From the IMG/VR virus record IMGVR_UViG_3300029288_007064: 64,000 bases of DNA; one strand, given 5' to 3'. Position 1 is the first letter of the stretch. Each line of letters starts with the position of its first letter. Shown in pieces: positions 666-23,669 of this stretch. This DNA comes from a virus (taxonomy: Duplodnaviria; Heunggongvirae; Uroviricota; Caudoviricetes). Position numbers and translations under genes: made by a program. Under the pieces are notes generated by a model. That model saw nothing but the letters and a program-made list of their open reading frames with translations, was not told the DNA's origin and searched no databases.

Positions 666-669
666 TTTA

Positions 670-5804: not shown

Positions 5805-5995
5805 TATTTCACCTTATACAACTCCCTTTTTACCCATTCCCACACACTCCGTTGCCCCTCCCGATAATCATTATGCATACCTCGCAGTTCATAGAGTTTT
5901 TCGTTTATTTTTTGGATTAATCTTTCTTTGAATTTCCTTTCTCCTGAACTTTCCCCCCTTCCAAATGCAACATCTGTTCCGTCTATAAACGCCAT
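5804..5995 (-). CDS. small hypothetical protein
   Basis: 63 aa; start preceded by GGAGTTGGGGTAAATG (third copy of the RBS element). Confidence 0.35.
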   Translation of the reverse strand: MAFIDGTDVAFGRGESSGERKFKERLIQKINEKLYELRGMHNDYREGQRSVWEWVKRELYKVK

Positions 5996-6466
5996 TTACC
6001 CCAACTCCTTCAGCAACCACCAAAACGCTTCTATTTTTCCGTTATAATGATTGCGAGAACCTTTACCTTCCTCTCGGAATATTGCTTCTGCTAATTTCAT
6101 TTCGTTCTCAACCTTCTCCCTCAACCCCTTCTTGTAGTTGGCGAGTTTGGCTTCTAACGCAAGTTCTTTTTCGTGGCTTCTATCGTATTCATCTGTTTGC
6201 CCTGCTTGAAAGCCAATTCTAAATGCTTCCTCTATGCTGAAACGGGAATAGAGTTCTGGAATACTCTCATTGGTTTCATCAACCATTACCCTTTTATGTG
6301 CTAATCCTTCTATTTCCTTTATTTTTTTCTCGGTCAGCACGGATTTTTCCTTTTCCTTGCAATCGCACTCCGAATAGGTATGCTTCGTATAACTTCCTTC
6401 TTCGTCAGTTCCTTTGATTTTCCCGTTGTCTATTACCCCTGTTCCGTTGCAGATTTTACAGACCAT
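5996..6466 (-). CDS. hypothetical protein with N-terminal CxxCxGxG zinc-finger-like motif
   Basis: 156 aa; MVCKICNGTGVID; ends ...KELG* overlapping the next RBS. Confidence 0.4.
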   Translation of the reverse strand: MVCKICNGTGVIDNGKIKGTDEEGSYTKHTYSECDCKEKEKSVLTEKKIKEIEGLAHKRVMVDETNESIPELYSRFSIEEAFRIGFQAGQTDEYDRSHEKELALEAKLANYKKGLREKVENEMKLAEAIFREEGKGSRNHYNGKIEAFWWLLKELG

Positions 6467-6740
6467 TCATTTCACCCTTCATCTTCGCTTCTGCGAACTT
6501 CTCCATTTCATCATATTGCTTCATCTTGGCGTGTGCAATTACCTCATCTGGGCTTCCCATCAAATGCTGTAGCCGTTCTGCATCATAAAAATCTCCTTTC
6601 TTCTTCGCGTAATCCCTCATCTCCTTGAAGGCGGAGAGGCGACCTTCTTCCTTTCCGTTTGTATGCCCACGTGCATATCCCACCATATACTCTGGGTGAG
6701 GCAACTGTCCAATTTCTTCCTTCGTTGGTTTGTCCATCAT
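6456..6740 (-). CDS. hypothetical protein
   Basis: 94 aa ORF in the same-strand tight array. Confidence 0.35.
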   Translation of the reverse strand: MMDKPTKEEIGQLPHPEYMVGYARGHTNGKEEGRLSAFKEMRDYAKKKGDFYDAERLQHLMGSPDEVIAHAKMKQYDEMEKFAEAKMKGEMNGL

Positions 6741-7021
6741 ATAAATCTACCTTTCCTTTCTCCACTTTTCTTCTGTGCTTCGTATAATTCACGATAGAAT
6801 TTCTCAGTTTTAATCTTCTCCAATTCCGCCTTCAGTTTTGCGTTCTCCTCAAAGAGGTTATTGGATTTTTCAACCATTTCTGCCCAAAGTTTCGTTTTCC
6901 ACGTTTCAGGGCGTTCCTTGTTGAGCAGGGCAACTACTTTTTTAACTACTTCTTCGCCTTTTGCTTCGTAGTTTTCCCAAACTTCATTTATAATTTCTTC
7001 TGCGAGTTCTCGTGTGTTCAT
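6737..7021 (-). CDS. hypothetical coiled-coil protein
   Basis: 94 aa, charged helical; 4-nt overlap with its neighbour. Confidence 0.35.
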   Translation of the reverse strand: MNTRELAEEIINEVWENYEAKGEEVVKKVVALLNKERPETWKTKLWAEMVEKSNNLFEENAKLKAELEKIKTEKFYRELYEAQKKSGERKGRFI

Positions 7022-7025
7022 TTAA

Positions 7026-7268
7026 TCACCGTCTAACAGATTTCTTTATTGCATATAATATTTCGTGGTAAGTATCTTTCCCTAAACTACATCTTATCCC
7101 ATATAGAAGTGCTTTTTCGTCATCTGAAAGTAATTTTTTATTGAGTTGTGGTTCAAACCAATTATCATCTAAAGGCATTTGTCTATCAAATCCTTTATCT
7201 GGATTACAATTTTTGCAGAATATTTCTATTTCTTCCATACTACATTTACATTTTGAACATCTTATCAT
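7026..7268 (-). CDS. zinc-ribbon protein
   Basis: 80 aa, CSKCKC...CKNC. Confidence 0.4.
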   Translation of the reverse strand: MIRCSKCKCSMEEIEIFCKNCNPDKGFDRQMPLDDNWFEPQLNKKLLSDDEKALLYGIRCSLGKDTYHEILYAIKKSVRR

Positions 7269-7283
7269 AGTCGTTTCACCCTT

Positions 7284-7601
7284 CTACCTCCCAATCTTCG
7301 GAGAGGACATATATCTTTTTTCATAACCCCATTTTTTAGTTCCGTTTAGGTAAAGCCAATCCTTTCCTTTAACCTCAATCGCAACCATTCTTCCAACCGA
7401 AACAAGCCATTTGTTAATGCACTTCTTTGAACAGAAGTGTTCCATAACGCCCTCTCGCAAACAATAGAATTTCTTTTGTGAGATTTCTTTGCCACATTCC
7501 ATACATTTGCAAGCATAATCTGGTAATGCCTCTACTTCAATTTCTCCTGTAATTCTGTTCTTATTAGTCTTATTGGCTTGACAGATAGGACACTCAATCA
7601 C
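7284..7601 (-). CDS. zinc-binding protein (CPIC..CKC..C plus FCS/TRASH-like HFCSKKC motif)
   Basis: 105 aa with multiple Cys pairs. Confidence 0.4.
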   Translation of the reverse strand: MIECPICQANKTNKNRITGEIEVEALPDYACKCMECGKEISQKKFYCLREGVMEHFCSKKCINKWLVSVGRMVAIEVKGKDWLYLNGTKKWGYEKRYMSSPKIGR

Positions 7602-7655
7602 AAATACACCCGCTTCCCTTCCTTTGCCGATTTTACTGCGTCTATGAAGTTCATT

Positions 7656-7880
7656 TTATGCACCCTTAATCACTATGATAAATGCTCCTTGTGGATAATC
7701 CTCTCGTTCGTCGTAAATATAGTTAAATCCGTCTCCATGCCTTGACGGTTCTAATGCAGTTGCTTTCTTTTCTGTTGCTATTTCTGCTCTTCCTTCCTTT
7801 GGAATGACATGAACTTCAGCACCGCGAAAGAGTAATTCATCCAAAATTTCCTGTTTTGTTGCATTTTTTAATTCTGTCAT
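7656..7880 (-). CDS. small hypothetical protein
   Basis: 74 aa; TATA-like TTTATAAA lies 32 bp upstream of its ATG. Confidence 0.35.
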   Translation of the reverse strand: MTELKNATKQEILDELLFRGAEVHVIPKEGRAEIATEKKATALEPSRHGDGFNYIYDEREDYPQGAFIIVIKGA

Positions 7881-7904
7881 TTAATTACCAATTATATATT
7901 AAAC

Positions 7905-7930
7905 CAAACTATTTATAAAGGTATGCTTTT
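7905..7930 (-). promoter_or_regulatory. archaeal-type TATA-box-like promoter element (TTTATAAAGGTATGCT)
   Basis: TTTATAAA at 7912-7919, 32 bp upstream of the ATG at 7880. Near-identical copy at 16175-16194. Confidence 0.4.
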
Positions 7931-9028
7931 ATACATTTCCCTTATTCTAGGCAGTATTCCTTCCCAGGAGAACTTCTTTGCAGTTTCCAAAGCATTCTCA
8001 GACAGTTTTACTCTTAATTTATCATCGGTCAATACCTTCTCAAGATACTCTGCAAGTTCTTCTGGATTATCAGGTTTAACAAGAATACCGTTTTCGTAAT
8101 GCTTTATGATGTCAGGTATTCCTCCAACCATTGTTCCAACTGGTGTTATTCCACAAGCCATCGCTTCAATAAACACGATGCCAAATCCTTCGTCTCTGGA
8201 AGGACGACAGAAGACATCTGCCGAGGAATACCATTTTGATATTTCTTCGTGCTTTACTGGTGGATGAAATATTACTTCATTAGATGCCAATTTCATTAAT
8301 CTTTCTTTCTCTTCTCCATCTCCAATGATTACTAGCTCCCAATCTGGATGCTTTGGTTTAAGAACGCTAAATGCTCTTATGAGAGTATCTATTCCATTTT
8401 TGTGAGTAAGCCTGGATACACTCAGTATTATCTTTGAAGGATTGTCATCAAAGAACTCTCCTCTTATGTCTTTTGTCTTTTCAAATAACTTCAAATCAAC
8501 GGCATTTGGAATGACCACTACGTTCTTTGCACCAAGTGCTTTTGCCTTGCGTTCTAGGTCGTTAGAAACAGCGTGTACAACGTCTGCATTTCGAAGTGTC
8601 CAAGATACTATCGGTCTCAATATCTTGCCGAATTTACCCGTATTCTCGCTGTAATCACACATATCTCCTCCCTGTATGGTGACTATTGCTTTCTTGCCTG
8701 TCAATTTTTTGAGTATAACTGCTGAAGTTCCGGCAGTGAAAGCCATCGTTCCGTGATAGCAATTTACATCTTTTCTTTGTATCCACCCTTCAATAACAGA
8801 AGTGAAAAGGAATGAAAAAAGTTTTACGTTCTTTATCATAATCATAGGAACACGATTTACCTTTACTCCATTTATTACTTCTTTGTCTGGAAGGTCTCCT
8901 TTGAACTTTCCTGTAATAACCGAGACATCATTATCCACTGCTAATCTTTCACATAAGTCTTTTGCGAATACTTCAGCTCCTCCTTCATTTATTGGATGAT
9001 AGAAGGCACATATATGTATGATTTTCAT
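7913..9028 (-). CDS. GT4-family (GT-B fold) glycosyltransferase
   Basis: 371 aa; MKIIHICAFYHP...; C-terminal EGFGIVFIEAMACGITPV EX7E motif. Confidence 0.85.
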   Translation of the reverse strand: MKIIHICAFYHPINEGGAEVFAKDLCERLAVDNDVSVITGKFKGDLPDKEVINGVKVNRVPMIMIKNVKLFSFLFTSVIEGWIQRKDVNCYHGTMAFTAGTSAVILKKLTGKKAIVTIQGGDMCDYSENTGKFGKILRPIVSWTLRNADVVHAVSNDLERKAKALGAKNVVVIPNAVDLKLFEKTKDIRGEFFDDNPSKIILSVSRLTHKNGIDTLIRAFSVLKPKHPDWELVIIGDGEEKERLMKLASNEVIFHPPVKHEEISKWYSSADVFCRPSRDEGFGIVFIEAMACGITPVGTMVGGIPDIIKHYENGILVKPDNPEELAEYLEKVLTDDKLRVKLSENALETAKKFSWEGILPRIREMYKSIPL

Positions 9029-9352
9029 TTTAGTCGTCCTCCTCTTCTTCTACCTCTTCATCTTCGTCGTCTTCGAAGTCATCATTTTTTCAATCCTCTT
9101 CTTCATCATACTTTTGTGTTCTATCTCTTCCCATAATTCTCACCGTCTTTTTATGTGATATTTATCCTCTCTCTAATCCCATCAAATTACAATAATCAAT
9201 TTCTGAAATATCAACCAATAACAACTTTCCACTAGGCATAACTAGTTCCAAATAGTATTCATCACCACGAAATGTTCGCACTTTCCTAACATTTCTATAT
9301 TCCAATGTTTTTCCTTCCATGTCCATTCACCTAATTATACTATAAATCATAC

Positions 9353-9372
9353 AATTTATAAACCTATGCTCT
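9353..9372 (-). promoter_or_regulatory. archaeal-type TATA-box-like promoter element (TTTATAAACCTATGCT)
   Basis: TTTATAAA at 9355-9362, 29 bp upstream of a small unlisted ORF beginning MDMEGK at 9326. 19-bp identical copy at 18631-18650. Confidence 0.35.
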
Positions 9373-9646
9373 ACCTATACATCTCGGTGTTATCCGGTTC
9401 TTTCTCTAGCATAATCGCTCCAGTATCCAATTTCGCCTTACATTTTTTACATTGAATAACAAACTCTCCTGTTTTCTTTAGTGTTAATATTGTAGTGTTA
9501 TTCGATATTTCGGTTTGACATTTCTTACAAAAGCTCTTTACAACAAATGTTTTCCTTCGTGGTGCTCCAAAGAAACTTTTCAAGATATCTAGCTTGAAAC
9601 CTTTCCTATTCTTATTTATGTCCTTTACTGCATCTTCGATTTCCAT
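9371..9646 (-). CDS. zinc-ribbon protein
   Basis: 91 aa; CKKCQ...CKKCK. Confidence 0.4.
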   Translation of the reverse strand: MEIEDAVKDINKNRKGFKLDILKSFFGAPRRKTFVVKSFCKKCQTEISNNTTILTLKKTGEFVIQCKKCKAKLDTGAIMLEKEPDNTEMYR

Positions 9647-9807
9647 TATTTCACCTCATACCATCCAGCAATTGCGCATATCTTTTCCAGGATTATAGGC
9701 AATTTCTCTTCAACCAAATCTGCTCTTTGCCATAGGTCTTCGGCACAGCTAATTTCTTCTTGGTCAATTATCCGTTTAATTGCTTCCAACTTTTTAGCTG
9801 CATCCAT

Positions 9808-10008
9808 TCATTTCACCTTCAATATCCGCAATGTTCTACCTTTCGTAGTTTTAGCAAATACATTATTGCATATCATACAAGCATCATCTGCTTTTGCTTT
9901 TACTATCTTAGCGTAGCGATAGTCTTTGTAAGAATAACCATTTAATTCTATTTTGTTATTCCAGCAATAATCGCAGCATCCGGTTCTCATCCTAATCCAC
10001 CCATACAT
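9808..10008 (-). CDS. small Cys-rich protein
   Basis: 66 aa; CCDYC...CMIC. Confidence 0.35.
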   Translation of the reverse strand: MYGWIRMRTGCCDYCWNNKIELNGYSYKDYRYAKIVKAKADDACMICNNVFAKTTKGRTLRILKVK

Positions 10009-10504
10009 ATCCTTCTTCTTCCAGTTCGCCTTCTCTTTCTCCAGGTTTTATGTCCTCTTTGAAAATTACTAGAACTTTTTCCTCTCCTGTGAGACCTCTT
10101 CCAAATTTTCTTGTCTTTAAGAACTTTTCAAAGGGAAGGAATTTGCCCCATGCAGACTTTTCTTCATCCTGTTTTTCAACATATTTTGCAGTTGCCCCAT
10201 TAACCATTCCTTCTCCGCAAACCCATGCCTCGTCTTTTGTGATTTCTTTTCCTTTCTTATCAAAGTATCCATACCTACAATTTCTATGATATCCCGTAAG
10301 TTGCTCTAAACTATCTCCCTCATCTATAGAATAATCACTACCACAGCCTGTGCATGTCACCCTATTGGGTTTTCTTCCAAAGCGATTTTGAAAGATTATC
10401 TCTGCTTCTTTCAGCGGTGCTTCTATAAATATAAAAGCCCAATCCAATTTCTGGCTACCGCCTGAATGCATATCCCAAAACTTTGTCCATTTAGTTGCTG
10501 TCAT
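9992..10504 (-). CDS. hypothetical protein
   Basis: 170 aa; contains CTGCG and several other Cys/His; acidic C-terminus. Confidence 0.4.
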   Translation of the reverse strand: MTATKWTKFWDMHSGGSQKLDWAFIFIEAPLKEAEIIFQNRFGRKPNRVTCTGCGSDYSIDEGDSLEQLTGYHRNCRYGYFDKKGKEITKDEAWVCGEGMVNGATAKYVEKQDEEKSAWGKFLPFEKFLKTRKFGRGLTGEEKVLVIFKEDIKPGEREGELEEEGYVWVD

Positions 10505-10937
10505 TGTTTACACCTTTTTTGAATGTTTCATACATCGGACACCAAATAACGCTTTCAATTACTTGGTAAGCTTTTCCTTCCTCAAATGCATATTTTGTAT
10601 TCCAATTAACCCTGTTTGCTGTGCAGTCTGTGTAATTACAAATGAGCAATAACGCATCCTCGTCATTGTAATAAACAAGCCGACCACACCCTCCTCCAAT
10701 AACACTTGTTTCCTCTATTCCGCAAGCTGCTAATCTATTTGCGAGCGTAACTTGGCTCCAATAACACTCTTCATTTTTAGATTCAATAATGGCGTTATTG
10801 CAAGCGTCTACTCTTTGTTGAGTCATCATCATTCCTATGTAGCATCCAATGACTACTAATATAATAATTCCAATAAATATTATAATGGGTGTCAAATCCA
10901 TCTTTGGCTTATTTTCTGTTTCACTCATGTAAATCAC
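10491..10937 (-). CDS. Cys-rich membrane-anchored protein
   Basis: 148 aa. N-terminal TM helix IIIFIGIIILVVIGCYIG followed by an ectodomain with about 10 Cys. Confidence 0.45.
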   Translation of the reverse strand: MIYMSETENKPKMDLTPIIIFIGIIILVVIGCYIGMMMTQQRVDACNNAIIESKNEECYWSQVTLANRLAACGIEETSVIGGGCGRLVYYNDEDALLLICNYTDCTANRVNWNTKYAFEEGKAYQVIESVIWCPMYETFKKGVNNDSN

Positions 10938-11139
10938 ACTCTGTTACTTCATCATCACTAAGTTCTTCTTCCTCGTCCTCTGCCTTTTGTTTATTCCTTG
11001 CTTTAGCTTCTTTTTCTTTCTTGAGGCAAGTATCACAAGTAAATGTAATGCTTTCAATTTCGTTCTGTCCTGCAATTTCTATTGTAATAACACCGCCCCT
11101 TAAACAAGAGCATTCAACTTCAAATTCATATTGTACCAT
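10921..11139 (-). CDS. small zinc-ribbon-like protein
   Basis: 72 aa; CSC...CDTC; acidic tail. Confidence 0.35.
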   Translation of the reverse strand: MVQYEFEVECSCLRGGVITIEIAGQNEIESITFTCDTCLKKEKEAKARNKQKAEDEEEELSDDEVTECDLHE

Positions 11140-11331
11140 TTATATCACCTTGATTTTAACTTCAATTTCAAACGATTTTTGTAATATGTTAGTCCAGCAC
11201 CCCTTTTCCTTGTTGTAACAATCTGCTCTTTTTAGCATTTGCATTTCTAAAAATTCTCCTATATTGTGAACAACCACAAATCTCTCTTCTTTGCGTTTCC
11301 CTTTGAGGAGTTTAAATTTTTTAGTAGTCAT
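11140..11331 (-). CDS. small hypothetical protein
   Basis: 63 aa. Confidence 0.3.
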   Translation of the reverse strand: MTTKKFKLLKGKRKEERFVVVHNIGEFLEMQMLKRADCYNKEKGCWTNILQKSFEIEVKIKVI

Positions 11332-11484
11332 TTGGTTTCACCCGTTTCTTTCCGTTTTTATATCCTCTTGAATATGCAATCATTATCGCGCGTTCAACTC
11401 CTGGATAATCTAAATAAAATCCCATAGTAGCATTTAATTGTTTAACCATATCACAATAACCACGAATATCCTTTAATCATAACT

Positions 11485-11682
11485 TTACTCCGTCGTTGGT
11501 TCTGCTTTAGTGCAACGGCATTCCCGCATACTTTCCGGCAACCGTTTATCTAAATCTTTATTCCTACTAGGGACAACTGTGCAATAACCACCGAATACCC
11601 CTTTATGGCAATGCCACCATGTTCCATAGTATTTAACTATCTTGTGTCTACAATTCTTACATAGAACAACTTTCTTAATCAT
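11485..11682 (-). CDS. zinc-ribbon protein
   Basis: 65 aa; CKNCRH...CHKG...CRC. Confidence 0.4.
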   Translation of the reverse strand: MIKKVVLCKNCRHKIVKYYGTWWHCHKGVFGGYCTVVPSRNKDLDKRLPESMRECRCTKAEPTTE

Positions 11683-11685
11683 GCG

Positions 11686-11931
11686 TTATTCCACCATAAA
11701 CCCGTTCTTCTCCCCAACCGCTTTAAGGTCATCAACACTAAGCGTTTTCTTGTTCCTAGCTAGCGTTATTTCACACGCTTGTTCCGTATAGCTTACCATC
11801 AACTGCGATACATACTTGTTCAATGCAGCAATGTATTCAGGTGACATCCTGCATTCCTTCGCAACTAAAGATGGCTTCACGATGCGAACAATTACTCCTT
11901 TCGGTATTAATTTTTTTGCTTCATCTTCCAT
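11686..11931 (-). CDS. histone-fold protein resembling archaeal histones (HMfB-like)
   Basis: 81 aa. Aligns by eye with HMfB: IPKGVIVRIVK ~ LPIAPIGRIIK; RMSPEYIAALNKYVSQLMVSYTEQACEIT ~ alpha2; ARNKKTLSVDDLKAV ~ HAGRKTIKAEDIELAV (loop 2 KT plus alpha3). Confidence 0.5.
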   Translation of the reverse strand: MEDEAKKLIPKGVIVRIVKPSLVAKECRMSPEYIAALNKYVSQLMVSYTEQACEITLARNKKTLSVDDLKAVGEKNGFMVE

Positions 11932-11943
11932 TTATTTCACCTT

Positions 11944-12141
11944 TTAATAGTATGTACGTTTCCTTTTGTATATATTTTTATGAAAAGAAGGTTGCGCATA
12001 TAGTTGTTGTCTTCTTATCATCGCTAACTTTCCCAAATCCAAGCAATTTAAACTTTTATTCCTAACCTCTTCTTCGAATAAGAATTGCTTATCTGATTCC
12101 TTCCACTTGAAACCTTTCTTTTTCTTTTCTATTATTTTCAT
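11944..12141 (-). CDS. small basic protein
   Basis: 65 aa, Lys-rich. Confidence 0.3.
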   Translation of the reverse strand: MKIIEKKKKGFKWKESDKQFLFEEEVRNKSLNCLDLGKLAMIRRQQLYAQPSFHKNIYKRKRTYY

Positions 12142-12445
12142 TCATTTCACCTTGTAAATATTTTCCCAATAGCAAGTTAAGGGAATTTTCTATGGAGGTA
12201 CTAAAACCTGCTATCGGGAATTGCACATGGAATAACACCAACATCTAGACGATATTTTTGGCGATTGCAGCCCAAATGTTATTCCACTTTGTGCTTCTTC
12301 TTTACTCCCTCCTTTAAACACTCCTTGCATATTTCTATCTTTTCACCTAATACCGTTTGATGTGATATCGTTTCTTTGTATGCCTTGCATTTCTTACATT
12401 GCTCCATTCATCATCACCCAATATTACTGTTCAGTAATTTTGCTT

Positions 12446-12688
12446 TTAGATTCTTCTGTATGATGTCTTCCGTACATAGGATTTTTTGTATCTTTTATCT
12501 TCATTTTTATCGTCCTCTTTTCTTTCAATTTTATTCATCCACGAATTTCGTAAGTATCCACATACTATACACCACTCGTCAGGAAATATTGTATCTTTTT
12601 TTGTATCAATCGTTGATTTTGTTCTTCCTTTGCATATCGGACACCATCTTTTACCATCTGGTTTCTGTCTAAATGAATTATACCACAT
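12446..12688 (-). CDS. zinc-ribbon protein
   Basis: 80 aa; CPICKG...CIVCG. Confidence 0.4.
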   Translation of the reverse strand: MWYNSFRQKPDGKRWCPICKGRTKSTIDTKKDTIFPDEWCIVCGYLRNSWMNKIERKEDDKNEDKRYKKSYVRKTSYRRI

Positions 12689-12839
12689 GTTATTCCCTCC
12701 ATTTCCATTTTATCATTCCTCAAACATTTCTTCTAAACCGTCTCCAAGCAAACCCCAATCCATATTATTGTCAAGGTCTTTCTCGCTTCCTCTCCAACTT
12801 GCTCGAATAAGGCGCAATATTTGTGAAATGTTTTTCATG

Positions 12840-13724
12840 TTATTCCCTCGATTTTCCCGTGTCCTCTTCCACAAATGCAGCAATAGGAGTACCTTCACTA
12901 GTAGGTTCTACATAGGGTTTAATCCTTCCATGTTTTATATTTGATTGCACGGTAGAAATAACACCAGATATTTTTCTACGCAACGTGTTATCAGGAATAT
13001 TGAACTTGCCTTTTGTTCGTGCTATTACATCGGTCTTTATTTCCTCTGGCGAATAACCCGCAGCAATTTTCCTTCTAGTGTAGTCAGTTAGTGTTAATCC
13101 ATCGAGCATTCCAGTAAAAACAAGTCTATCAGACGAAAGTACCTTCTTTACTTTGTAAAGTCCTTCGATAACTTTTTGTGAAATAGTTGCCTTGCCAAGT
13201 TTTCCTGTCATTAACTTGCTTACGGAAGTCTTTATCTGCCCCTCTGGGTATCCTTGCTCCTTCATGTCTTTAATGGCACGGAAAATCATTTCATCGTATG
13301 AAGCTACTTGTTCTGTTTTGGAAGTATCACCCCTTGTCATTTCCCAATGCTTATTCTTTACCACATTCCATACCTTTGTTCTCAACGTTTTCTCTGGAAT
13401 ATCCATTTTTCCTTTAGCAAGTGTTATTACATCATTTACTACTTCATCTGTGCTCTTTCCTTTATTAAGTTCATTAACGCTATATGTTGAAAGCGTCATT
13501 CCGATAATAGGAACCCAATCTATTTTACCAATCTTACTCCTCTTTACAACGGTCTTGATTTCATGCTCCTCTTCTTTCTTTTGTGTCGGAGCTTCACCTT
13601 TTGGAGTAGTTATTCCATTCATCCTCATCAGAGCAGTTAATAGCTCTTCAGCTTCCCCTTCCAATTTTATTTCCATTTTCATTTTATCCATCTCCGTTTG
13701 TTTCCATACCTGTCGAGATATCAT
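12840..13724 (-). CDS. hypothetical protein with two internal ~100-aa repeats
   Basis: 294 aa. Repeated block [ST]xxE[VI]xxDVIxxxKGKxxIPxxTLRxK occurs twice (around residues 95-130 and 215-250). Confidence 0.45.
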   Translation of the reverse strand: MISRQVWKQTEMDKMKMEIKLEGEAEELLTALMRMNGITTPKGEAPTQKKEEEHEIKTVVKRSKIGKIDWVPIIGMTLSTYSVNELNKGKSTDEVVNDVITLAKGKMDIPEKTLRTKVWNVVKNKHWEMTRGDTSKTEQVASYDEMIFRAIKDMKEQGYPEGQIKTSVSKLMTGKLGKATISQKVIEGLYKVKKVLSSDRLVFTGMLDGLTLTDYTRRKIAAGYSPEEIKTDVIARTKGKFNIPDNTLRRKISGVISTVQSNIKHGRIKPYVEPTSEGTPIAAFVEEDTGKSRE

Positions 13725-13890
13725 CTCGATTGATTATTACTTTGTTATTAAACTTGTCTATTATCACTAGTTCTTTATCGGTTACAGTTATTGCTTCGCC
13801 GGTATAATAACTAAGCGAATTGCCTCCTGGATTTTTAACTCTAAGACTATATCGCTTACCCACTTCATATGTTTCATTTTCCATGTTCAT
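13684..13890 (-). CDS. small hypothetical protein
   Basis: 68 aa. Confidence 0.3.
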   Translation of the reverse strand: MNMENETYEVGKRYSLRVKNPGGNSLSYYTGEAITVTDKELVIIDKFNNKVIINRDDISTGMETNGDG

Positions 13891-14491
13891 TCACCGTTGC
13901 CATTGCCTCATATAAATTATTTCCCAAGACTTTCTTGCATTTTGGACACTCTAGATATACGAATCCAATATCTTCATTTGGCTCTAGTTCATATCCGTTT
14001 GGAAATTTAGAGTCCACAAATACTTTTGCTTCGATAGTTGTGCCAAAGTAATCAATAATTTCTTGGCAATAAGGGCATACCATATCCTCTTCTTCCGATT
14101 CAATTAATTCTTCAGCAATTTGCTTTCTTTCTTCTTCCTCATCGGCTTGTCTTTCATGCATCCTATCTTCGTCCTCTTCTAGTTCATCTACTCTATTCAT
14201 TTTTTCTTTTATCATTTCTATAATATCGGTCTCCCTATTATGTACTGCATAAAACAGTGCATCTTTTCCTTGGCAGTTAGTTAAATAAATATCTGCACCT
14301 GTATCTAGTAATACTTTTACTATTTCAAGATGACCGTTGGCTACTGCACACATTAGTGGAGTTGTTCCATATTCTGTTGAAGAGTTTACGTTTACTCTCA
14401 TCGCAAGTAATTTTCTTACTTGTTTTATATCTCCGTTCCTTGCACTTTCAATTAAATCATCCTCTTGTAAAGTTTGTATTTTTATAACCAT
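13874..14491 (-). CDS. ankyrin-repeat protein with C-terminal zinc ribbon
   Basis: 205 aa. GTTPLMCAVANGHLEIVKVLLDTGADI and GKDALFYAVHN ankyrin repeats; C-terminal CPYCQ...CPKCKK. Confidence 0.6.
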   Translation of the reverse strand: MVIKIQTLQEDDLIESARNGDIKQVRKLLAMRVNVNSSTEYGTTPLMCAVANGHLEIVKVLLDTGADIYLTNCQGKDALFYAVHNRETDIIEMIKEKMNRVDELEEDEDRMHERQADEEEERKQIAEELIESEEEDMVCPYCQEIIDYFGTTIEAKVFVDSKFPNGYELEPNEDIGFVYLECPKCKKVLGNNLYEAMATVNEHGK

Positions 14492-14812
14492 TTATTTCAC
14501 CTTCGTAGGAGAAAATTTAACTCCTGTTGTATTCCATTCGGTTTTACAACGGGTACAATAGAAGGTTACTCCAAGTTCGAGTTTATTCTCCATATCAAAA
14601 CTATGTTCATATACACCATCTTGACGACATATTTCACCTGAATATTCTTCCTTTATTTTATTAATTTTCTTAGTAATATCTTCTTTTAGAACATCATATT
14701 CCTTTGCTGTCTTTTTGGAATACGCTTCTGATAGAATCGCTTCTAACTTTGCTATTTTCTCTTTTCCTTCCTTATTGCAAATTGGACATTCTACCCATTC
14801 ATCGGCTGACAT
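14492..14812 (-). CDS. zinc-ribbon protein
   Basis: 106 aa; CPICNK...CTRCK. Confidence 0.4.
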   Translation of the reverse strand: MSADEWVECPICNKEGKEKIAKLEAILSEAYSKKTAKEYDVLKEDITKKINKIKEEYSGEICRQDGVYEHSFDMENKLELGVTFYCTRCKTEWNTTGVKFSPTKVK

Positions 14813-14972
14813 ATTATTTCACCTCATCATAATAGGTGTCAAGTGCCGCACATATTGCATCTCGCCATCTATTTCACCCGTTTCAAGGTTGCCCCTACAT
14901 AGATAAGAGCCATGCTCTCCCCTAACGTATGCGTATTTTCCCTTTGTGCAAACTTTTATTTTTCCTTCCATC

Positions 14973-15173
14973 TCAATCCACCTCTTCGACGTTTGTTTTA
15001 CCTTCTTTTGTAAAGGTAAAAGTTATTCCCTTCTTCCCTTTCTTTTGTGCTTGCCTAACCATATCTGCAACTTTACATGCTGGCATAAGCTCTTTCGCAT
15101 CCAAAGCGCCTCCGTGTGCAAGGTTGCATAGAGTTTCCCAAGTTGGCTCTATGTCTATCGTGTGTTCTGCCAT
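14973..15173 (-). CDS. small hypothetical protein
   Basis: 66 aa. Confidence 0.3.
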   Translation of the reverse strand: MAEHTIDIEPTWETLCNLAHGGALDAKELMPACKVADMVRQAQKKGKKGITFTFTKEGKTNVEEVD

Positions 15174-15413
15174 TCAATCCACCTTCCTTCCGCATACTGA
15201 GCATTTTGGTTTGAGGCAAGCACCCTTGCAAACAGGGCAATAGCCCCATTCCTTCTTGGCTTCTTCCGCTTTCATCTTGCTCTTGAAACCAGTTATTATA
15301 GCATCACCGTAGGCATAGAGAACCCCCTTGAGTTCGTATCCCGCGTCCTCTTCACAGTATTCGCCTGTTTCCCCTGTTTTTGTGTTCAGATAAAATCTTG
15401 TAGTCATTTTCAT
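15174..15413 (-). CDS. zinc-ribbon protein
   Basis: 79 aa; CPVCKGAC..CSVCG. Confidence 0.4.
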   Translation of the reverse strand: MKMTTRFYLNTKTGETGEYCEEDAGYELKGVLYAYGDAIITGFKSKMKAEEAKKEWGYCPVCKGACLKPKCSVCGRKVD

Positions 15414-15422: not shown

Positions 15423-16199
15423 TTAGTTCCTCTTTGGTATTCCTTTCTTTTCCACTATTGCTTTCATAGCATCATAAAACTCCTTTGCTTCTTCAGGTGT
15501 TACTTCCAACCGTATTTGTGCAGTAAAAGTTACCTTATCATTATGCGGTGTTAATTCAATTTGCACATAATCGCTAAAAACACTGTCGCGTTCATATGTC
15601 TCGTAAATTTTACGAGTTCCCCCATAAATAGGGAGATGCTCCGTTTTGTCCTTATTAAGCAAGTCACATAGAGAAGTCATGCCCTTCTTTTCGTTATCTT
15701 CAACTGTTTTGTTTCTTATATATTCTTCATTTTTCTTTTCAAGGTATTGCTCTAATGTTTCTTTAGAGCCAGAATACCAGCCACCATGATACCGTCCCGA
15801 ATCTATTTGTAATGACGCATCCACAACGGTTTTCCTCACCTTTTCGCCATCTATAGTCGCTACCCATTCGTATTTAAAATATGCGTTTGCACTTACTCTC
15901 AGGACGATGTTCTTGTAATGAATGTATACCCCATGATTAGTAGTATCGAAGGTTATCGCCTCGGTTTGGAGTTTAGCGATTTCTTGCTTTATAAACTCCG
16001 TTTCATATTCCTTTCTAACTAGTTCCTTCTGCTTGTACTCTTTCTTCCTTTGGTCCCTACTAGTAGATAGGTCATCAAGGTATGTATATTGTTCCACCAA
16101 TCCTTCCATTTTCGTTTTTTCGTTTCCTTCCATATCCTTCAACTCCTTGTAAGTAATACTATGTTCCATAGGGTTTATAAAGGTATGCTTTATTCCCAT
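15423..16199 (-). CDS. hypothetical protein
   Basis: 258 aa; TATA-like TTTATAAA at 16228-16235, 29 bp upstream of its ATG. Confidence 0.45.
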   Translation of the reverse strand: MGIKHTFINPMEHSITYKELKDMEGNEKTKMEGLVEQYTYLDDLSTSRDQRKKEYKQKELVRKEYETEFIKQEIAKLQTEAITFDTTNHGVYIHYKNIVLRVSANAYFKYEWVATIDGEKVRKTVVDASLQIDSGRYHGGWYSGSKETLEQYLEKKNEEYIRNKTVEDNEKKGMTSLCDLLNKDKTEHLPIYGGTRKIYETYERDSVFSDYVQIELTPHNDKVTFTAQIRLEVTPEEAKEFYDAMKAIVEKKGIPKRN

Positions 16200-16237
16200 C
16201 TTCTACGTCGTGAATCCCTCAATCCCATTTATAAAGG

Positions 16238-16723
16238 TTATGTTGCTATTTCGGGCGAATATACGCCTATTCTAGCCATGTTTTCCTTGAACCACGTGTT
16301 AACCCCGATATAAACGAATAACAACGGCGAAAGCACCCCCACAACCACCGTATTGCCGATAAGGTGGCTTATTGTGAATGGAATCTGCCCAATAAATGCA
16401 TCCGCAAAGCTCATCGGAAATAACAACGGTCCTCCTATGACACCCGTAAGCAAATCGAATAACAACGTGCCTACAAAACTCATTCCTAGAAAGTTTATTG
16501 GATTTGCGGTAGGTTTAAAGTATGTGAAAGTTAATCCAACAATTCCCCATGCAATAAAGCACATTAAAGTCCATATACCCATCATTCCGGTTATTACATC
16601 AACTAACGCATACAACAATCCTCCCAACATGAATGCGTATTGTTTTTTAAGAAGTGGACAGAACGTAGTGGTCGCTACCATCAGCAATCCAAATGTCCAT
16701 GCAATAGTGATTGTAGTTTCCAC
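16238..16723 (-). CDS. polytopic membrane protein (ECF-transporter S-component-like size and topology; uncertain)
   Basis: 161 aa with about 5 predicted TM helices, Gly/Phe-rich. Confidence 0.35.
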   Translation of the reverse strand: METTITIAWTFGLLMVATTTFCPLLKKQYAFMLGGLLYALVDVITGMMGIWTLMCFIAWGIVGLTFTYFKPTANPINFLGMSFVGTLLFDLLTGVIGGPLLFPMSFADAFIGQIPFTISHLIGNTVVVGVLSPLLFVYIGVNTWFKENMARIGVYSPEIAT

Positions 16724-16724
16724 A

Positions 16725-17009
16725 TTAACACGCTCCTATTAAATAATTGCGTTGCTTTATTCGATGGAATTTTCCTTTTTTCAAAGCATTCCCAAATAAC
16801 GCGGCGGACATTACTAGTCCTACGAATATCGAAACAATTGGTGCATATTCGGTTATCCACAAATTAGCTAGATTAAATAATCCGAATGCTAATGCGAATC
16901 CGAATAAGAACCAAAATTCCAACATTACAATTGTGTGCCAATTCAAACCTATTGTTTTGACACACAATATTCCTTCCTTCTCGTTTAGGTATATTTTTCC
17001 GTTAATCAT
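16725..17009 (-). CDS. small membrane protein
   Basis: 94 aa with two hydrophobic helices. Confidence 0.35.
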   Translation of the reverse strand: MINGKIYLNEKEGILCVKTIGLNWHTIVMLEFWFLFGFALAFGLFNLANLWITEYAPIVSIFVGLVMSAALFGNALKKGKFHRIKQRNYLIGAC

Positions 17010-17205
17010 TTTTCTTCGCCCTCAATACTACTTCGTATTCTGTTGGTGTATGCAATCCTGCTAAAAATATCTCGTGCAAGGCACTTAGTGTTTTAGCCCT
17101 TCCCTCGAATACATAATTGTCGTTGAAAATACTGCCGTGCAATATTTTATCCAAGAGGTCTTTTGGTTTCCTTATTATTCCTGTTTCTATTACCAGTTCG
17201 ATCAT
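17002..17205 (-). CDS. small hypothetical protein
   Basis: 67 aa. Confidence 0.3.
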   Translation of the reverse strand: MIELVIETGIIRKPKDLLDKILHGSIFNDNYVFEGRAKTLSALHEIFLAGLHTPTEYEVVLRAKKND

Positions 17206-17945: not shown

Positions 17946-18083
17946 TTGCTACACTTCCGGTTCTGGTACTGTACAATCTCTATATTTTAGATTTTGTTCT
18001 TTGAATGGATAAAACTTTTCCCTTTTATGATAATAACCATATTGATTACCACAAAGTTGTGTTCCGCAATGTTTGCATTTCAT

Positions 18084-21925: not shown

Positions 21926-22384
21926 TTATTTCACCTTTTGAATATACTTTAACACATCATTATCCATATTAAACATTCCATCCACCGCCTTATCCGATAA
22001 CTTTCTCTTTTTATTTATTACAGAATAAACATAATTCTCTACATCACCTGATATAAGGTGTACGACCGTTTTTCTACGAGTGCTATCGAGCCTATGAATT
22101 CTATCTTCCACTTGCGATAGAACAGCAGGATTCCAAGGGAGTGTATAAACAATCAAAGTATCAAATTCATCCAAGTTCATTCCATACGATAATATCTTTG
22201 TAAAAATCATTATTACATTTTTGTCTGTGCTTTTTGCTAATTTAATTGCTTGCTCTCTATCTTCTTGTTCTGTATCACCAGATAATAGAATAATCTCCGT
22301 ATTCTCATATTTATCCTTTAGTTCATTATAAATTATATTAGCAACTGTCTTGAACTCAGAATAAATAGCAACTTTTTCACTCAT
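21926..22384 (-). CDS. SNF2-family ATPase, C-terminal helicase lobe (motifs IV-VI) as a separate ORF
   Basis: 152 aa. KVAIYSEF (motif IV-like), SYGMNL (motif V-like) and QVEDRIHRLDST (motif VI, QxxxRxxRxGQ-like). Confidence 0.7.
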   Translation of the reverse strand: MSEKVAIYSEFKTVANIIYNELKDKYENTEIILLSGDTEQEDREQAIKLAKSTDKNVIMIFTKILSYGMNLDEFDTLIVYTLPWNPAVLSQVEDRIHRLDSTRRKTVVHLISGDVENYVYSVINKKRKLSDKAVDGMFNMDNDVLKYIQKVK

Positions 22385-23669
22385 AGTTTTTCACCTTCTC
22401 CTTGAAACCTAATTCTTGCAAAATATCTTTTACTTCATCTATTTTTCCACTTCCTCCATCTATTTGTAAATTCTTCGCTATTTCGGATTTACTTTCTTTC
22501 AATGCCATAGGATGAGCAGCATTTATTCGGAGCAAAGCGAATAAGCCAAATGTATTTGTAGTGTTGTTATTTATTCCCTTTACTAGAGTTTTTAATTGAT
22601 ATTCAATCGATTCTTGACACTTTGTCAGAGGAATTTTTCTTACTTCATAATTCTTTGGAAGTAAATCTGTTACTTCTTCTTTTGTTCTTCTTATGAAATA
22701 AGGCAAAGCCTCTTTTCTAAATTCTTCTATACCTTTAAAGCCAACAATCTTTCTATAATCTCTTCCATTAACTTCTATAAAATCCCAAACACAATATTCA
22801 CCGTAAAATTTGTTTTTTGACATCCAATTTGGCTTTACTATGTTAAGTATGTTATGGAAATCCGATAACGAATTTTCAAGAGGAGTTCCTGTAAGTAATA
22901 ATACATCGCTTGCTTCCTTTCTTGCACGTTCCATTGTGAAATAAAGCAAACTCTTTGACGATTTGCATCGACTAATTTCATCGCCAATTATAAAGTAGTT
23001 GCTTAGATTTGGCTTATCATTCCTAAGTGTTTCATAACTAACAATGCTCCATTTCTTGTCGTTATTCCATAGTTCCGCCCTCTTCTTCTTTTGACCTTCA
23101 ATAATCTGAATTTCATCCGAAACTTCTGGGAGCCATTTTTCTATTTCTTGTTTCCATTGCAATTTAAGAGAATTTGGACACGTAATAAGTATTTTTTCAT
23201 TAAAAATTCTATTTCTAATATCTGCAAGATGTATTGCTTGAGTCGATTTTCCTAATCCCATCTCGTCTGCGATAAGAAACGAACCAGTTTTTATTGCTTG
23301 CCTTATTCCTTCTTTTTGAAAATCTTTTAGTTGACTTCCTGTATATAATTGATTAAATAACGCAAGTGCTTTTAAATACTTTTCCTTCTTTTCTTGTGCG
23401 TTTTTAACGAATAAGGACGCCTTGGCAGACAAAATAGGGCTAAAGATAAGGAGCTTTCGCTGAATGTCCTCGAAATCGTTATTCTCTAATGGAATTATCC
23501 ACGCTCCTTTTCCAGATTTGGTAATTATTGATGGATTCCAAATTGCCCTTGTAAAGTTTTCCTTAATAACTTTTATGATATTCGGATTGTAAGGTGTAAT
23601 AACCATTGCATATTCATTTTCTATATCGAGTTCTACAACCATGCTTATTCCACCTTTTCCCTCCTCCAT
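22377..23669 (-). CDS. SNF2-family ATPase, N-terminal lobe (motifs I-III) as a separate ORF
   Basis: 430 aa. LKDFQKEGIRQ (Q motif), LIADEMGLGKSTQAI (Walker A) and IIGDEISRCKS (DExx box). Stop overlaps the ATG of the C-lobe ORF. Confidence 0.75.
   Translation of the reverse strand: MEEGKGGISMVVELDIENEYAMVITPYNPNIIKVIKENFTRAIWNPSIITKSGKGAWIIPLENNDFEDIQRKLLIFSPILSAKASLFVKNAQEKKEKYLKALALFNQLYTGSQLKDFQKEGIRQAIKTGSFLIADEMGLGKSTQAIHLADIRNRIFNEKILITCPNSLKLQWKQEIEKWLPEVSDEIQIIEGQKKKRAELWNNDKKWSIVSYETLRNDKPNLSNYFIIGDEISRCKSSKSLLYFTMERARKEASDVLLLTGTPLENSLSDFHNILNIVKPNWMSKNKFYGEYCVWDFIEVNGRDYRKIVGFKGIEEFRKEALPYFIRRTKEEVTDLLPKNYEVRKIPLTKCQESIEYQLKTLVKGINNNTTNTFGLFALLRINAAHPMALKESKSEIAKNLQIDGGSGKIDEVKDILQELGFKEKVKNYE

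What the first reader, a model, noticed from the sequence alone, without database searches (positions are those of the whole stretch)
11686..11931. Archaeal-histone-like histone-fold protein encoded among Zn-ribbon mini-genes
An 81-aa ORF aligns by eye along its whole length with HMfB-type archaeal histones (alpha1 IPKGVIVRIVK, long alpha2, loop-2 KT, alpha3 LSVDDLKAV).
Element-encoded histones are rare outside eukaryotic giant viruses. Together with the split SNF2 ATPase at 21.9-23.7 kb it suggests chromatin-level manipulation of the element or host DNA.
Basis: partly seen in the sequence, partly recalled or inferred. Interest (0 to 1): 0.7.

Follow-up and report, generated by a model that had tools for sequence, protein, structure and literature searches.

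The report
Divergent histone in an archaeal virus
A small gene on a ~94-kb virus-like DNA element from landfill archaea does encode a histone-type fold, but it belongs to a rare, divergent lineage that probably cannot build the stacked chromatin fibres of archaeal hosts, and histones carried by prokaryotic viruses have already been reported.

Summary

The canonical DNA-contact residues are present: R16, R28 and K61-K62-T63, with D68 seven residues after K61. It is not a typical HMfB-type histone. It aligns better with the NF-YB class (93.8% vs 72% hhalign probability). Its alpha1/L1 is 3 residues longer. It also replaces two residues canonical archaeal histones use to oligomerise: the stacking glycine (K25, invariant in the family) and the four-helix-bundle histidine (A58).

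The family is tiny, 7 clusters among 5.8 billion proteins, and every member with enough flanking DNA sits on a related low-GC, virus-like archaeal contig. No second histone-fold gene exists in the genome.

The "rare outside giant viruses" premise is outdated, and the SNF2 link is weak.

Most likely it is a DNA-binding histone dimer that bends DNA or caps host histone fibres rather than wrapping DNA. That function is inferred, not shown.

The parts
11686..11931 (-). 81-aa singlet histone-fold protein with no tails. Predicted layout: alpha1 about residues 10-19, a long L1 at 20-30, alpha2 at 31-58, L2 at 59-65, alpha3 at 66-75, and a conserved C-terminal EKxG[FI] motif.
11937..11941 (-). Shine-Dalgarno-like GGTGA, 5 nt upstream of the histone ATG.
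   Evidence: Read directly from the sequence. GGTG lies within 20 nt upstream of 69 of 117 genes in the window.
11944..12141 (-). Upstream operon neighbour, 65 aa, no detectable family. It is preceded by a 137-nt gap that may hold the local promoter.
   Evidence: Not conserved next to the histone gene in other lineages.
11485..11682 (-). Downstream operon neighbour, 65 aa, Cys/His-rich (CxxC...HCH...CRC). Its start lies 3 nt after the histone stop.
   Evidence: Not conserved next to the histone gene in other lineages.
22377..23669 (-). SNF2-family ATPase N-lobe (430 aa). It co-occurs with the histone gene, but a functional link is unproven.
   Evidence: PF00176 E = 1.4e-30; PDB hits; a homolog lies on histone-carrying contigs L007 and L008; equally similar SNF2 genes occur in 502 phage records.
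21926..22384 (-). SNF2-family ATPase C-lobe (152 aa, Helicase_C). It is a separate ORF overlapping the N-lobe ORF by 8 nt (ATGAGTGA) and has its own AGGTGA ribosome-binding site.
   Evidence: It is a single 512-aa ORF in L008.

Best explanation
The gene encodes a stand-alone, tail-less histone-fold protein of the CBF/NF-YB/archaeal-histone superfamily. It is carried by a ~93.8-kb, circularly assembling, virus-like element of an uncultivated low-GC archaeon from anoxic landfill leachate. DPANN-type archaea are the best host guess.

Shown: the gene is real and under purifying selection. It has the histone fold, with a 28-residue alpha2, L2 and a 10-residue alpha3. It keeps the alpha1 arginine (R16), the L1 'sprocket' arginine (R28) paired with the L2 threonine (T63), the invariant L2 lysine (K62), and an acidic residue (D68) seven positions after K61.

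Inferred: like all histone folds it works as a handshake dimer. Because the genome has no second histone-fold gene, this would be a homodimer or a heterodimer with a host histone. The dimer would bind about 30 bp of DNA non-specifically through the alpha1-alpha1 and L1-L2 sites and bend it.

Its family replaces two residues canonical archaeal histones use to oligomerise. The L1 glycine needed for stacking hypernucleosome turns is an invariant lysine (K25). The four-helix-bundle histidine is a small residue (A58). It therefore most likely does not build extended hypernucleosomes. It would act either as a dimer-limited DNA bender or coater on replicating element DNA, or as a chain terminator ('capstone') within host histone fibres. 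Either would alter chromatin-dependent access to DNA during infection.
For: - Fold and family: PF00808 24.1 bits vs cutoff 21.4; 5 of 6 members hit PF00808. Profile vs PDB gives ORP1 1e-5, archaeal histone A 3.5e-3, then HapC, NC2-alpha, HPhA, NF-YBs and CHRAC-14. hhalign gives 93.8% vs the NF-YB class and 72% vs archaeal histones.
- Residue mapping, read against the signature list in PMC13260811.
- Basic character: pI 8.6, and 7.8-9.6 across the family, compared with 9.6 for HMfB.
- Real gene: dN/dS 0.06.
- No partner: only 1 of 98 small window ORFs hits PF00808. Three HMMs find no second histone fold in the window plus L011-L013.
- Element: the contig offsets differ by exactly k = 141, which implies a circle. 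PolB is closest to haloarchaeal tailed viruses. There is a clamp loader, primase-like protein and Sak4, an integrase, and 31 of 32 PolB relatives lie in archaeal MAGs, with DPANN lineages filling most of the top ranks. The sample is landfill leachate.
- Candidate host lineages have canonical histones: a Woesearchaeota contig encodes one.
- The capstone concept and promoter repression by archaeal histones are described in PMC11894787.
Against:
- The host is not identified; PolB identities are only 24-33%.
- No capsid or portal gene was detected, so 'virus' rests on the replication module, the genome architecture and one weak TerL/HerA-like ATPase.
Confidence: 0.55

Rival explanations
1. It is a canonical nucleosomal archaeal histone of the HMfB type. 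It would polymerise on the element's DNA into hypernucleosomes to compact or package it, inside the cell or the capsid. This is essentially the first reader's reading.
For: - This member has near-canonical L1 and L2 residues (R28-M29; K61-K62-T63-L64; D68).
- alpha2 is 28 residues, as in nucleosomal histones (PMC13260811).
- Two archaeal histones are among the profile hits.
- The protein is basic.
Against: - The L1 glycine required for stacking is an invariant lysine, the four-helix-bundle His is Ala or Gly, and L62 is Ala.
- L1 is 3 residues longer than in HMfB.
- HMfB and HMfA are not hit at E <= 10.
- Identity is only 20-27% to canonical cellular and viral HMf-like histones, all of which keep AKHAGRKT.
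- The gene sits among small accessory or replication-side genes, not in the putative morphogenesis block.
Confidence: 0.15
2. It is a protein-protein interaction module rather than a DNA packager. It would be an NC2/NF-Y/TAF-like histone fold that docks onto host histones or onto the TBP/TFB-promoter complex, to shut down or redirect host transcription.
For: - The best full-length profile match is to the NF-YB class, including the C-terminal 'LGF'-like motif.
- NC2-alpha is among the PDB hits.
- A related histone-carrying contig encodes its own TBP-family protein.
- The canonical L1 Arg and clamp Asp are poorly conserved in the family.
Against: - No NF-YC/NC2-alpha-like partner is encoded.
- There is no alphaC helix after alpha3.
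- The invariant residues are mostly basic and sit at DNA-facing positions (R16, K25, K62, K70, K75).
Confidence: 0.2
3. It is a chance ORF or a decayed pseudogene that only superficially resembles a histone.
For: It is short (81 aa) and lies in an AT-rich genome. The single-sequence Pfam E-value is only 4.4e-5, and the single-sequence AF2 model was poor.
Against: - Seven diverged homologs have conserved length and motifs.
- dN/dS is 0.06.
- It has a proper ribosome-binding site and operon packing.
- Sequence, profile and fold evidence all agree.
Confidence: 0.02

Closest known systems
HMf-like viral histones in Caudoviricetes ('MFVH' in Liu et al., bioRxiv 10.1101/2024.12.06.627149), and the canonical HMf-like histones I recovered from IMG/VR contigs (L046-L055)
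   Same: They are single histone-fold genes of about 63-73 aa without tails, carried by low-GC prokaryotic virus contigs. Hosts are predicted to be archaeal. One of the IMG/VR contigs comes from the same landfill study (3300028602).
   Different: Those proteins are 38-60% identical to HMfB and keep the AKHAGRKT[VI] motif, the His and a short L1. Ours is at most 27.5% identical to them. It has a longer L1, K in place of the stacking Gly, A in place of the His, and a conserved C-terminal EKxG[FI]xxE tail. No member of our family was found in IMG/VR.
Archaeal nucleosomal histones (HMfB, HMfA, HTkA, HPhA; PDB 1a7w, 5t5k, 1ku5)
   Same: Same fold and size class, a 28-residue alpha2, the alpha1 Arg, the L1 Arg / L2 Thr pair and the L2 Lys. 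Both fall within Pfam PF00808.
   Different: About 20% identity. The G16, H49 and L62 equivalents are K25, A58 and A71. L1 is 3 residues longer, and R52 is K61. Hypernucleosome formation is therefore doubtful.
Eukaryotic NF-YB / NC2-beta / CHRAC-14 / Plasmodium ORP1 (H2B-like histone-fold proteins)
   Same: These give the best full-length profile match (93.8%, E = 1.8e-7, 74 columns). L1 length is similar. The alpha1 motif LPxxxxxRIxK and the end-of-alpha3 'LGF'-like motif are shared.
   Different: There is no alphaC helix. No H2A-like partner is encoded. The genetic context is prokaryotic and viral. Identity is only 23-27%.
'Phage histones' of Schwab et al. 2024 (PMC11390915) and the VTTH cluster of Liu et al.
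   Same: They are histone-fold proteins encoded by tailed prokaryotic viruses.
   Different: Those have an alpha3 truncated to 3-4 residues, a shorter alpha2 and a long C-terminal tetramerisation helix. Ours has a full 10-residue alpha3, a 28-residue alpha2 and no extra helix.
Archaeal 'capstone' histone variants (Stevens et al. 2020, as summarised in PMC11894787)
   Same: These are histone paralogs whose substitutions at oligomerisation interfaces are proposed to stop hypernucleosome growth. Our family carries substitutions at just such positions (K25, A58).
   Different: Capstones are cellular paralogs closely related to their partner histones. Ours is element-encoded and highly diverged, and heterodimerisation with a host histone is untested.
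Borg-encoded histones (PMC12660748)
   Same: They are histone-fold genes on large archaeal extrachromosomal, virus-like elements that also encode SNF2-type helicases.
   Different: Borgs are linear, ~1-Mb elements of Methanoperedens, often with adjacent histone pairs predicted to heterodimerise. This element is ~94 kb, assembles as a circle and has a single histone gene.

Membership tests
Histone fold, Pfam PF00808 (CBFD_NFYB_HMF) | Sequence score at or above the family's curated gathering threshold | tested here: met
   24.1 bits vs 21.4, E = 4.4e-5. 5 of 6 family members also match.
Histone fold, Pfam PF00808 (CBFD_NFYB_HMF) | Helix-loop-helix-loop-helix architecture with a long central alpha2 (~28 aa) | tested here: inconclusive
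   alpha2 31-58 (28 aa), L2 and alpha3 66-75 are predicted at pLDDT 80-88. alpha1 (residues 1-18) is unresolved at pLDDT < 50. alpha1 is supported only by alignment to NF-YB and HMfB alpha1.
Histone fold, Pfam PF00808 (CBFD_NFYB_HMF) | Structural similarity to solved histone-fold proteins | tested here: met
Histone fold, Pfam PF00808 (CBFD_NFYB_HMF) | Antiparallel 'handshake' dimer | not testable with these tools
Archaeal nucleosomal (HMfB-type) histones | L2 'RKTV' motif | tested here: inconclusive
   The query has K61-K62-T63-L64, i.e. R to K and V to L. In the family only K62 is invariant. Motif definition from PMC13260811.
Archaeal nucleosomal (HMfB-type) histones | L1 'RV' sprocket arginine paired with the L2 threonine (R-T pair) | tested here: met
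   R28-M29 and T63 are present in this protein. The Arg is present in only 2 of 7 family members.
Archaeal nucleosomal (HMfB-type) histones | R-D clamp (Asp 7 residues after the L2 Arg) | tested here: inconclusive
   D68 lies 7 residues after K61, but the Arg is a Lys. The Asp is present in 2 of 7 members; the others have an Asp one position earlier.
Archaeal nucleosomal (HMfB-type) histones | L1 glycine (HMfB G16 / HTkA G17) needed for closely stacked hypernucleosomes | tested here: not met
   It aligns with K25, which is invariant in all 7 family members. Feature definition from PMC13260811.
Archaeal nucleosomal (HMfB-type) histones | Four-helix-bundle histidine (HMfB H49) and Leu62 at the dimer-dimer interface | tested here: not met
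   These positions are A58 (A/G/A/L/A/A/A across the family) and A71. H49 is invariant in the 4 reference histones and in all 10 IMG/VR viral HMf-like histones. The role of H49 is from my knowledge of the HMfB hypernucleosome structure (5t5k).
Archaeal nucleosomal (HMfB-type) histones | Wraps ~30 bp per dimer and polymerises on DNA | not testable with these tools
   Needs multimer-plus-DNA modelling or biochemistry.
NF-YB / NC2-beta (H2B-like) class | Full-length profile similarity, including the longer alpha1-L1 and the end-of-alpha3 LGF motif | tested here: met
   hhalign 93.8%, E = 1.8e-7, 74 columns. The reference alignment has only 3 sequences.
NF-YB / NC2-beta (H2B-like) class | alphaC helix after alpha3 | tested here: not met
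   Only 6 residues follow alpha3, and they are not helical.
NF-YB / NC2-beta (H2B-like) class | Obligate H2A-like (NF-YC / NC2-alpha) heterodimer partner | tested here: not met
   No second histone-fold gene among 98 small window ORFs by Pfam, nor in the whole ~94-kb genome with three HMMs.
'Phage histones' (alpha3-truncated; Schwab 2024) | alpha3 of 3-4 residues, shortened alpha2, and a C-terminal tetramerisation helix | tested here: not met
   alpha3 is 10 residues, alpha2 is 28 residues, and there is no C-terminal helix. Definition from PMC11390915.
Caudoviricetes (tailed virus) genome as carrier | HK97-fold capsid, portal and large terminase genes | tested here: inconclusive
   The only signal is a 485-aa ATPase with weak TerL (phrog_2666, 9e-5) and HerA (0.001-0.003) matches. 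No capsid or portal was detected. PolB is nearest to haloarchaeal tailed viruses.

The most novel reading that the evidence does not exclude
The element encodes an anti-chromatin weapon. This would be a diverged histone that heterodimerises with the host's canonical histones or caps their fibres. Lacking the stacking glycine and the four-helix-bundle histidine, it would terminate or loosen host hypernucleosomes. That could unpack host DNA for degradation or recombination, or keep the incoming element's DNA free of repressive host chromatin. A related reading is that an H2B/NF-YB-class histone fold exists in archaeal viruses independently of eukaryotes.
Probability: 0.15. Interest if true: 0.8.

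Novelty: new variant of a known kind. Interest (0 to 1): 0.45.

Why it matters
No histone encoded by a virus of archaea has a demonstrated function, as far as I could find. Archaeal hosts package their DNA with histones that repress promoters in vitro (PMC11894787), so a virus-borne histone altered at the oligomerisation interfaces is a natural candidate for viral control of chromatin.

This family is small, cloneable (81 aa) and carries clear, testable sequence differences from canonical histones: K25 vs Gly, A58 vs His, and a longer L1. It would be a compact system for asking whether viruses of archaea manipulate chromatin, and which residues decide between DNA wrapping, bending and capping.

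Its intermediate sequence position between archaeal histones and the NF-YB/H2B-like class is also of some interest for histone-fold evolution. The general phenomenon of histones in prokaryotic viruses and Borgs is already on record, which limits the surprise.

Tried and rejected
- Single-sequence AF2 gave a poor, partly beta model (pLDDT 51) and was discarded.
- PHROGs has no family for the histone.
- tblastn against 50,697 phage and archaeal-virus records gave only noise (E >= 2); against 72,556 plasmids there was no match.
- The word-indexed protein search found only the protein itself. The exhaustive HMMER search was needed to find relatives. P0007 (434 aa, repetitive, E = 7e-4) was judged a low-complexity false positive and excluded.
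- An IMG/VR scan with the family pattern found no member. A GTDB scan with close patterns found none. The first attempt, with the 6-sequence alignment, failed for lack of a conserved stretch.
- I looked for a partner histone gene and found none.
- I tried to identify capsid, portal or terminase genes in the previously unseen 11.6 kb. PHROGs, Pfam, NCBIfam, tblastn vs phages, PDB and IMG/VR gave only a weak TerL/HerA-like ATPase.
- Host assignment through PolB relatives gave archaeal MAGs, mostly DPANN near the top, at 24-33% identity. This is suggestive only. The top hit is a 9.4-kb contig binned with a Spirochaetes MAG, probably a mis-binned viral contig.
- I considered a Borg-like element because of the one-strand gene orientation and low GC. 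I rejected it because the genome is 94 kb, assembles as a circle and lacks pervasive tandem repeats.
- No tRNAs and no Rfam families are present in the window.

Full report
**1. The observation**

The ORF exists exactly as described: 11686..11931 on the minus strand, ATG start, 81 aa, MEDEAKKLIPKGVIVRIVKPSLVAKECRMSPEYIAALNKYVSQLMVSYTEQACEITLARNKKTLSVDDLKAVGEKNGFMVE. A GGTGA ribosome-binding site lies 5 nt upstream (11937-11941). The upstream gene's stop codon is at 11944-11946 and the downstream gene starts 3 nt after the histone stop, so the gene sits in a tightly packed, co-directional run of small genes.

GGTG occurs within 20 nt upstream of 69 of 117 genes in the window. Twelve of 99 small ORFs have two or more CxxC pairs, and ten of those lie between 4.9 and 15.4 kb. 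The 'Zn-ribbon mini-gene' setting is therefore real.

**2. Is it a real gene?**

The word-indexed search found only the protein itself, on four contigs from several samples. The exhaustive HMMER search of 1.84 billion representatives found five credible relatives of 78-89 aa at 32-55% identity. A profile search added one more.

The closest pair (P0005 and P0008) differs at 35 of 237 nucleotides but at only 8 conservative residues. That gives dN = 0.053, dS = 0.85 and dN/dS = 0.06. The chance-ORF reading is rejected.

**3. Is it a histone fold?**

- Pfam PF00808 (CBFD_NFYB_HMF) matches residues 9-71 at 24.1 bits, above the curated cutoff of 21.4 (E = 4.4e-5). PF00125 scores 22.7, below its cutoff. 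Five of six family members hit PF00808.
- A profile of the family searched against all PDB sequences returns ORP1 (an NF-YB-like histone fold) at 1e-5 and an archaeal histone A at 3.5e-3. HapC, NC2-alpha, HPhA, several NF-YBs and CHRAC-14 follow.
- AlphaFold2 on the single sequence failed (pLDDT 51). With the 7-sequence alignment it gives pLDDT 71.8, with alpha2 = 31-58 (28 residues), L2, and alpha3 = 66-75. The N-terminal 18 residues are not resolved.

Each line of evidence is modest, as expected for an 81-residue helical protein, but they agree.

**4. Which kind of histone fold?**

I verified my recalled HMfB sequence against PDB 1a7w/5t5k and took HMfA, HPhA, archaeal histone A, ORP1, HapC and NF-YB sequences from tool outputs. 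I then aligned them with the family.

| Query residue | HMfB equivalent | Note |
|---|---|---|
| R16 | R10 | alpha1 arginine, invariant within the family |
| K25 | G16 | stacking glycine replaced; K25 invariant in the family |
| R28-M29 | R19-V20 | L1 'RV' sprocket arginine |
| A58 | H49 | four-helix-bundle histidine replaced |
| K61-K62-T63-L64 | R52-K53-T54-I55 | L2 'RKTV'; K62 invariant in all 14 aligned sequences |
| D68 | D59 | clamp aspartate, 7 residues after K61 |
| A71 | L62 | interface leucine replaced |

The alpha1-L1 segment is 3 residues longer than in archaeal histones and 1 longer than in NF-YB.

Measured against the 'universal histone signature' (RKTV, RV, R-T pair, R-D clamp; PMC13260811), this protein is near-canonical.

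Three things argue against 'HMfB-type'.

1. hhalign gives 93.8% (E = 1.8e-7, 74 columns, full length including alpha1 and the C-terminal EKxGF) against the NF-YB-class alignment. Against the archaeal-histone alignment it gives 72% (E = 3.4e-5, 53 columns, L1 to alpha3 only). HMfB and HMfA are not among the PDB hits at E <= 10.
2. The L1 glycine that PMC13260811 describes as essential for hypernucleosome formation is an invariant lysine here.
3. The histidine is invariant in the reference archaeal histones and in all ten canonical viral HMf-like histones I recovered. It sits in the four-helix bundle of the HMfB hypernucleosome (my knowledge of 5t5k). Here it is Ala or Gly.

Within the family the L1 arginine and the clamp aspartate occur in only 2 of 7 members. 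The invariant residues are G12, R16, K25, L37, K62, K70, K75 and G77. The reference alignments are small, so I do not assign the family to the NF-YB class. It lies between the two.

**5. The carrier**

The exact protein lies on a 93,958-bp MEGAHIT contig. Window-to-contig coordinate offsets for the histone and the PolB gene differ by exactly 141 bp, which is the assembler's k. The contig therefore closes on itself, giving a genome of about 93.8 kb that assembles as a circle.

Nearly all genes are on one strand, and GC is 31-42% across the window. Identified genes include:
- a family B DNA polymerase;
- gp44-like large and small clamp-loader subunits;
- a primase-like protein and a Sak4-like ATPase;
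- two N6/N4 DNA methylases and an ERCC4-HhH2 nuclease;
- a split SNF2 ATPase;
- five GT4 glycosyltransferases, a B12-radical-SAM enzyme and sugar-nucleotide enzymes;
- Thg1 and RlaP, an ankyrin protein, an SPFH protein and a 2,591-aa surface-type protein.

Outside the window lie a tyrosine integrase and a 1,314-aa beta-helix protein.

The polymerase's closest annotated relatives are haloarchaeal tailed viruses such as HRTV-27, HVTV-1 and HCTV-5 (26-29% identity, E down to 7e-72). Among GTDB species representatives, 31 of 32 polymerase relatives are in archaeal MAGs. Woese-, Nano- and Micrarchaeota fill most of the upper ranks, at 24-33% identity.

I fetched the 11.6 kb not otherwise visible. 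It holds a block of 120-694-aa genes with no detectable capsid or portal. There is one 485-aa ATPase with weak terminase (phrog_2666, 9e-5) and HerA (0.001-0.003) similarity.

One sample carrying the exact gene (IMG 3300037067) is a leachate well of a municipal landfill (bioRxiv 10.1101/2024.05.30.596742).

I conclude that this is a virus-like element of an uncultivated, low-GC, anaerobic archaeon. A tailed virus is the most likely form, but the virion type is unproven.

**6. The family's distribution**

Every relative with enough flanking DNA to judge lies on a low-GC (30-33%) virus-like contig.
- L006 carries PolB (38% identical to ours), ERCC4 (41%), a primase-like gene, a TBP-family gene and nucleotide-modification genes.
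- L007 and L008 carry SNF2, a resolvase and ERCC4.
- L010 carries giant beta-helix proteins.

Across lineages the histone is the only conserved gene in its immediate neighbourhood.

No member was found in IMG/VR, GTDB representatives, phage records or plasmids. No second histone-fold gene exists in the genome.

A Woesearchaeota chromosomal contig encodes a textbook HMfB-type histone that is only 23.5% identical to ours. The viral gene is therefore not a recent capture of such a host gene, and plausible host lineages do have histone chromatin.

**7. Mechanism**

Shown: a conserved, selected, basic (pI 8.6) singlet histone fold with canonical DNA-contact residues and non-canonical oligomerisation residues.

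Inferred:
- It forms a handshake dimer, either a homodimer or a heterodimer with a host histone.
- It binds DNA non-specifically.
- It does not build stacked hypernucleosomes.
- It therefore acts as a local bender or coater of element DNA, or as a terminator of host histone fibres. This is analogous to the proposed cellular 'capstone' variants (PMC11894787).

Archaeal histones repress promoters in vitro (same review), so either activity could change access to DNA during infection. The gene lies among accessory or replication-side genes in all lineages rather than in the putative morphogenesis block. This weakly favours an intracellular role over capsid packaging.

**8. The SNF2 argument**

The N-lobe's best PDB matches are eukaryotic remodelers (E about 1e-21), but the PDB is dominated by those proteins. 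Equally similar SNF2 genes occur in 502 phage records, mostly from hosts without histones such as Gordonia, Bacteroides and Pseudomonas. The 2024 survey found the histone-SNF2 association significant only in Megaviricetes.

SNF2 does co-occur with the histone in a second lineage (L007/L008), so a link is possible but unsupported.

The split looks genuine. The two ORFs overlap by 8 nt (ATGAGTGA), and the second has its own AGGTGA site.

**9. Novelty**

Histones in prokaryotic viruses and archaeal elements are already documented:
- more than 1,500 viral histones, including HMf-like singlets in Caudoviricetes with predicted Methanobacteriota hosts (bioRxiv 10.1101/2024.12.06.627149);
- alpha3-truncated 'phage histones' (PMC11390915);
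- Borg histones (PMC12660748).

I confirmed ten canonical HMf-like histones on IMG/VR contigs. The present family is distinct from all of these in sequence and in its signature residues, and it appears to be absent from IMG/VR.

I rate it a new variant of a known kind, of moderate interest. Its main value is as a compact experimental entry point into virus-chromatin conflict in archaea.

Noticed in passing
L006:9379-12519 and L006:14500-15899, L006:19747-20004: On the relative contig carrying P0002, the histone gene lies directly between an AAA_28 ATPase and genes matching Pfam TAGT and HMUDK_hel. As I recall, the latter is the 5-hydroxymethyl-dU DNA kinase of thymidine-hypermodification systems. 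Thymidylate-synthase-like and dCMP-deaminase genes lie downstream, along with an 85-aa TBP-family gene. Together these suggest DNA hypermodification and a virus-encoded TBP in an archaeal virus-like element.
   Followed up: no
window 21926-23669 (-): The SNF2 ATPase is split into N-lobe and C-lobe ORFs that overlap by 8 nt (ATGAGTGA), and the second ORF has its own AGGTGA site. The homolog is one 512-aa ORF in L008 and is interrupted at a different place in L007.
   Followed up: partly
window 45011-45951: This is the only large non-coding gap in the window, and it sits at the single strand switch. It contains a 21-bp x2 and a 50-bp x2.6 tandem repeat (45122-45334). It is a candidate replication origin or regulatory region.
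   Followed up: no
window 1-15287 joined to 15288-64000; contig k141_2937403: The coordinate offsets of two genes differ by exactly 141 bp, the assembler's k-mer. The 93,958-bp contig is therefore a closed circle of about 93.8 kb, i.e. a complete genome.
   Followed up: yes
window 3573-4953 (-): There are adjacent Thg1-like (tRNA-His guanylyltransferase family) and RlaP (RNA-repair-pathway nucleotidyltransferase) genes. This is an unusual RNA-repair pair for a viral genome.
   Followed up: no
window 55607-63382 (-) and L013:15142-19086: A 2,591-aa protein with a DUF2341 domain and a 1,314-aa NosD/beta-helix protein lie next to Rce1-like and YdjM membrane proteins. They are probably host-recognition or surface proteins.
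   Followed up: no
window 670-9028 and 15423-26637 (-): There is a large glycan-biosynthesis load: five GT4 glycosyltransferases, UDP-glucose dehydrogenase, two epimerase/dehydratases, a hexapeptide transferase and a B12-binding radical-SAM enzyme.
   Followed up: no
L013:1-13100 (contig 55.9-69.0 kb, outside the window): The putative morphogenesis block has no detectable capsid, portal or tail homologs in Pfam, PHROGs, NCBIfam or phage genomes. The only signal is a 485-aa P-loop ATPase with weak terminase and HerA similarity, so the virion type is unknown.
   Followed up: partly
L023:2061-2291, L023:8685-8876, L025:2062-2253: The Woesearchaeota MAG contigs found through PolB encode one canonical HMfB-type histone and two 63-aa histone-like ORFs that end right after the L2 motif (...GRKTVMAKDL). 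The latter resemble alpha3-truncated histones.
   Followed up: partly
window 13874-14491 (-): A 205-aa protein combines N-terminal ankyrin repeats, an acidic linker and a C-terminal CxxC...CxxC zinc ribbon.
   Followed up: no
L014 (QNBN01000096.1): The closest PolB relative in GTDB genomes (33% identity) is on a 9.4-kb contig binned into a Guaymas Basin 'Spirochaetes' MAG. It is probably a mis-binned viral contig.
   Followed up: no
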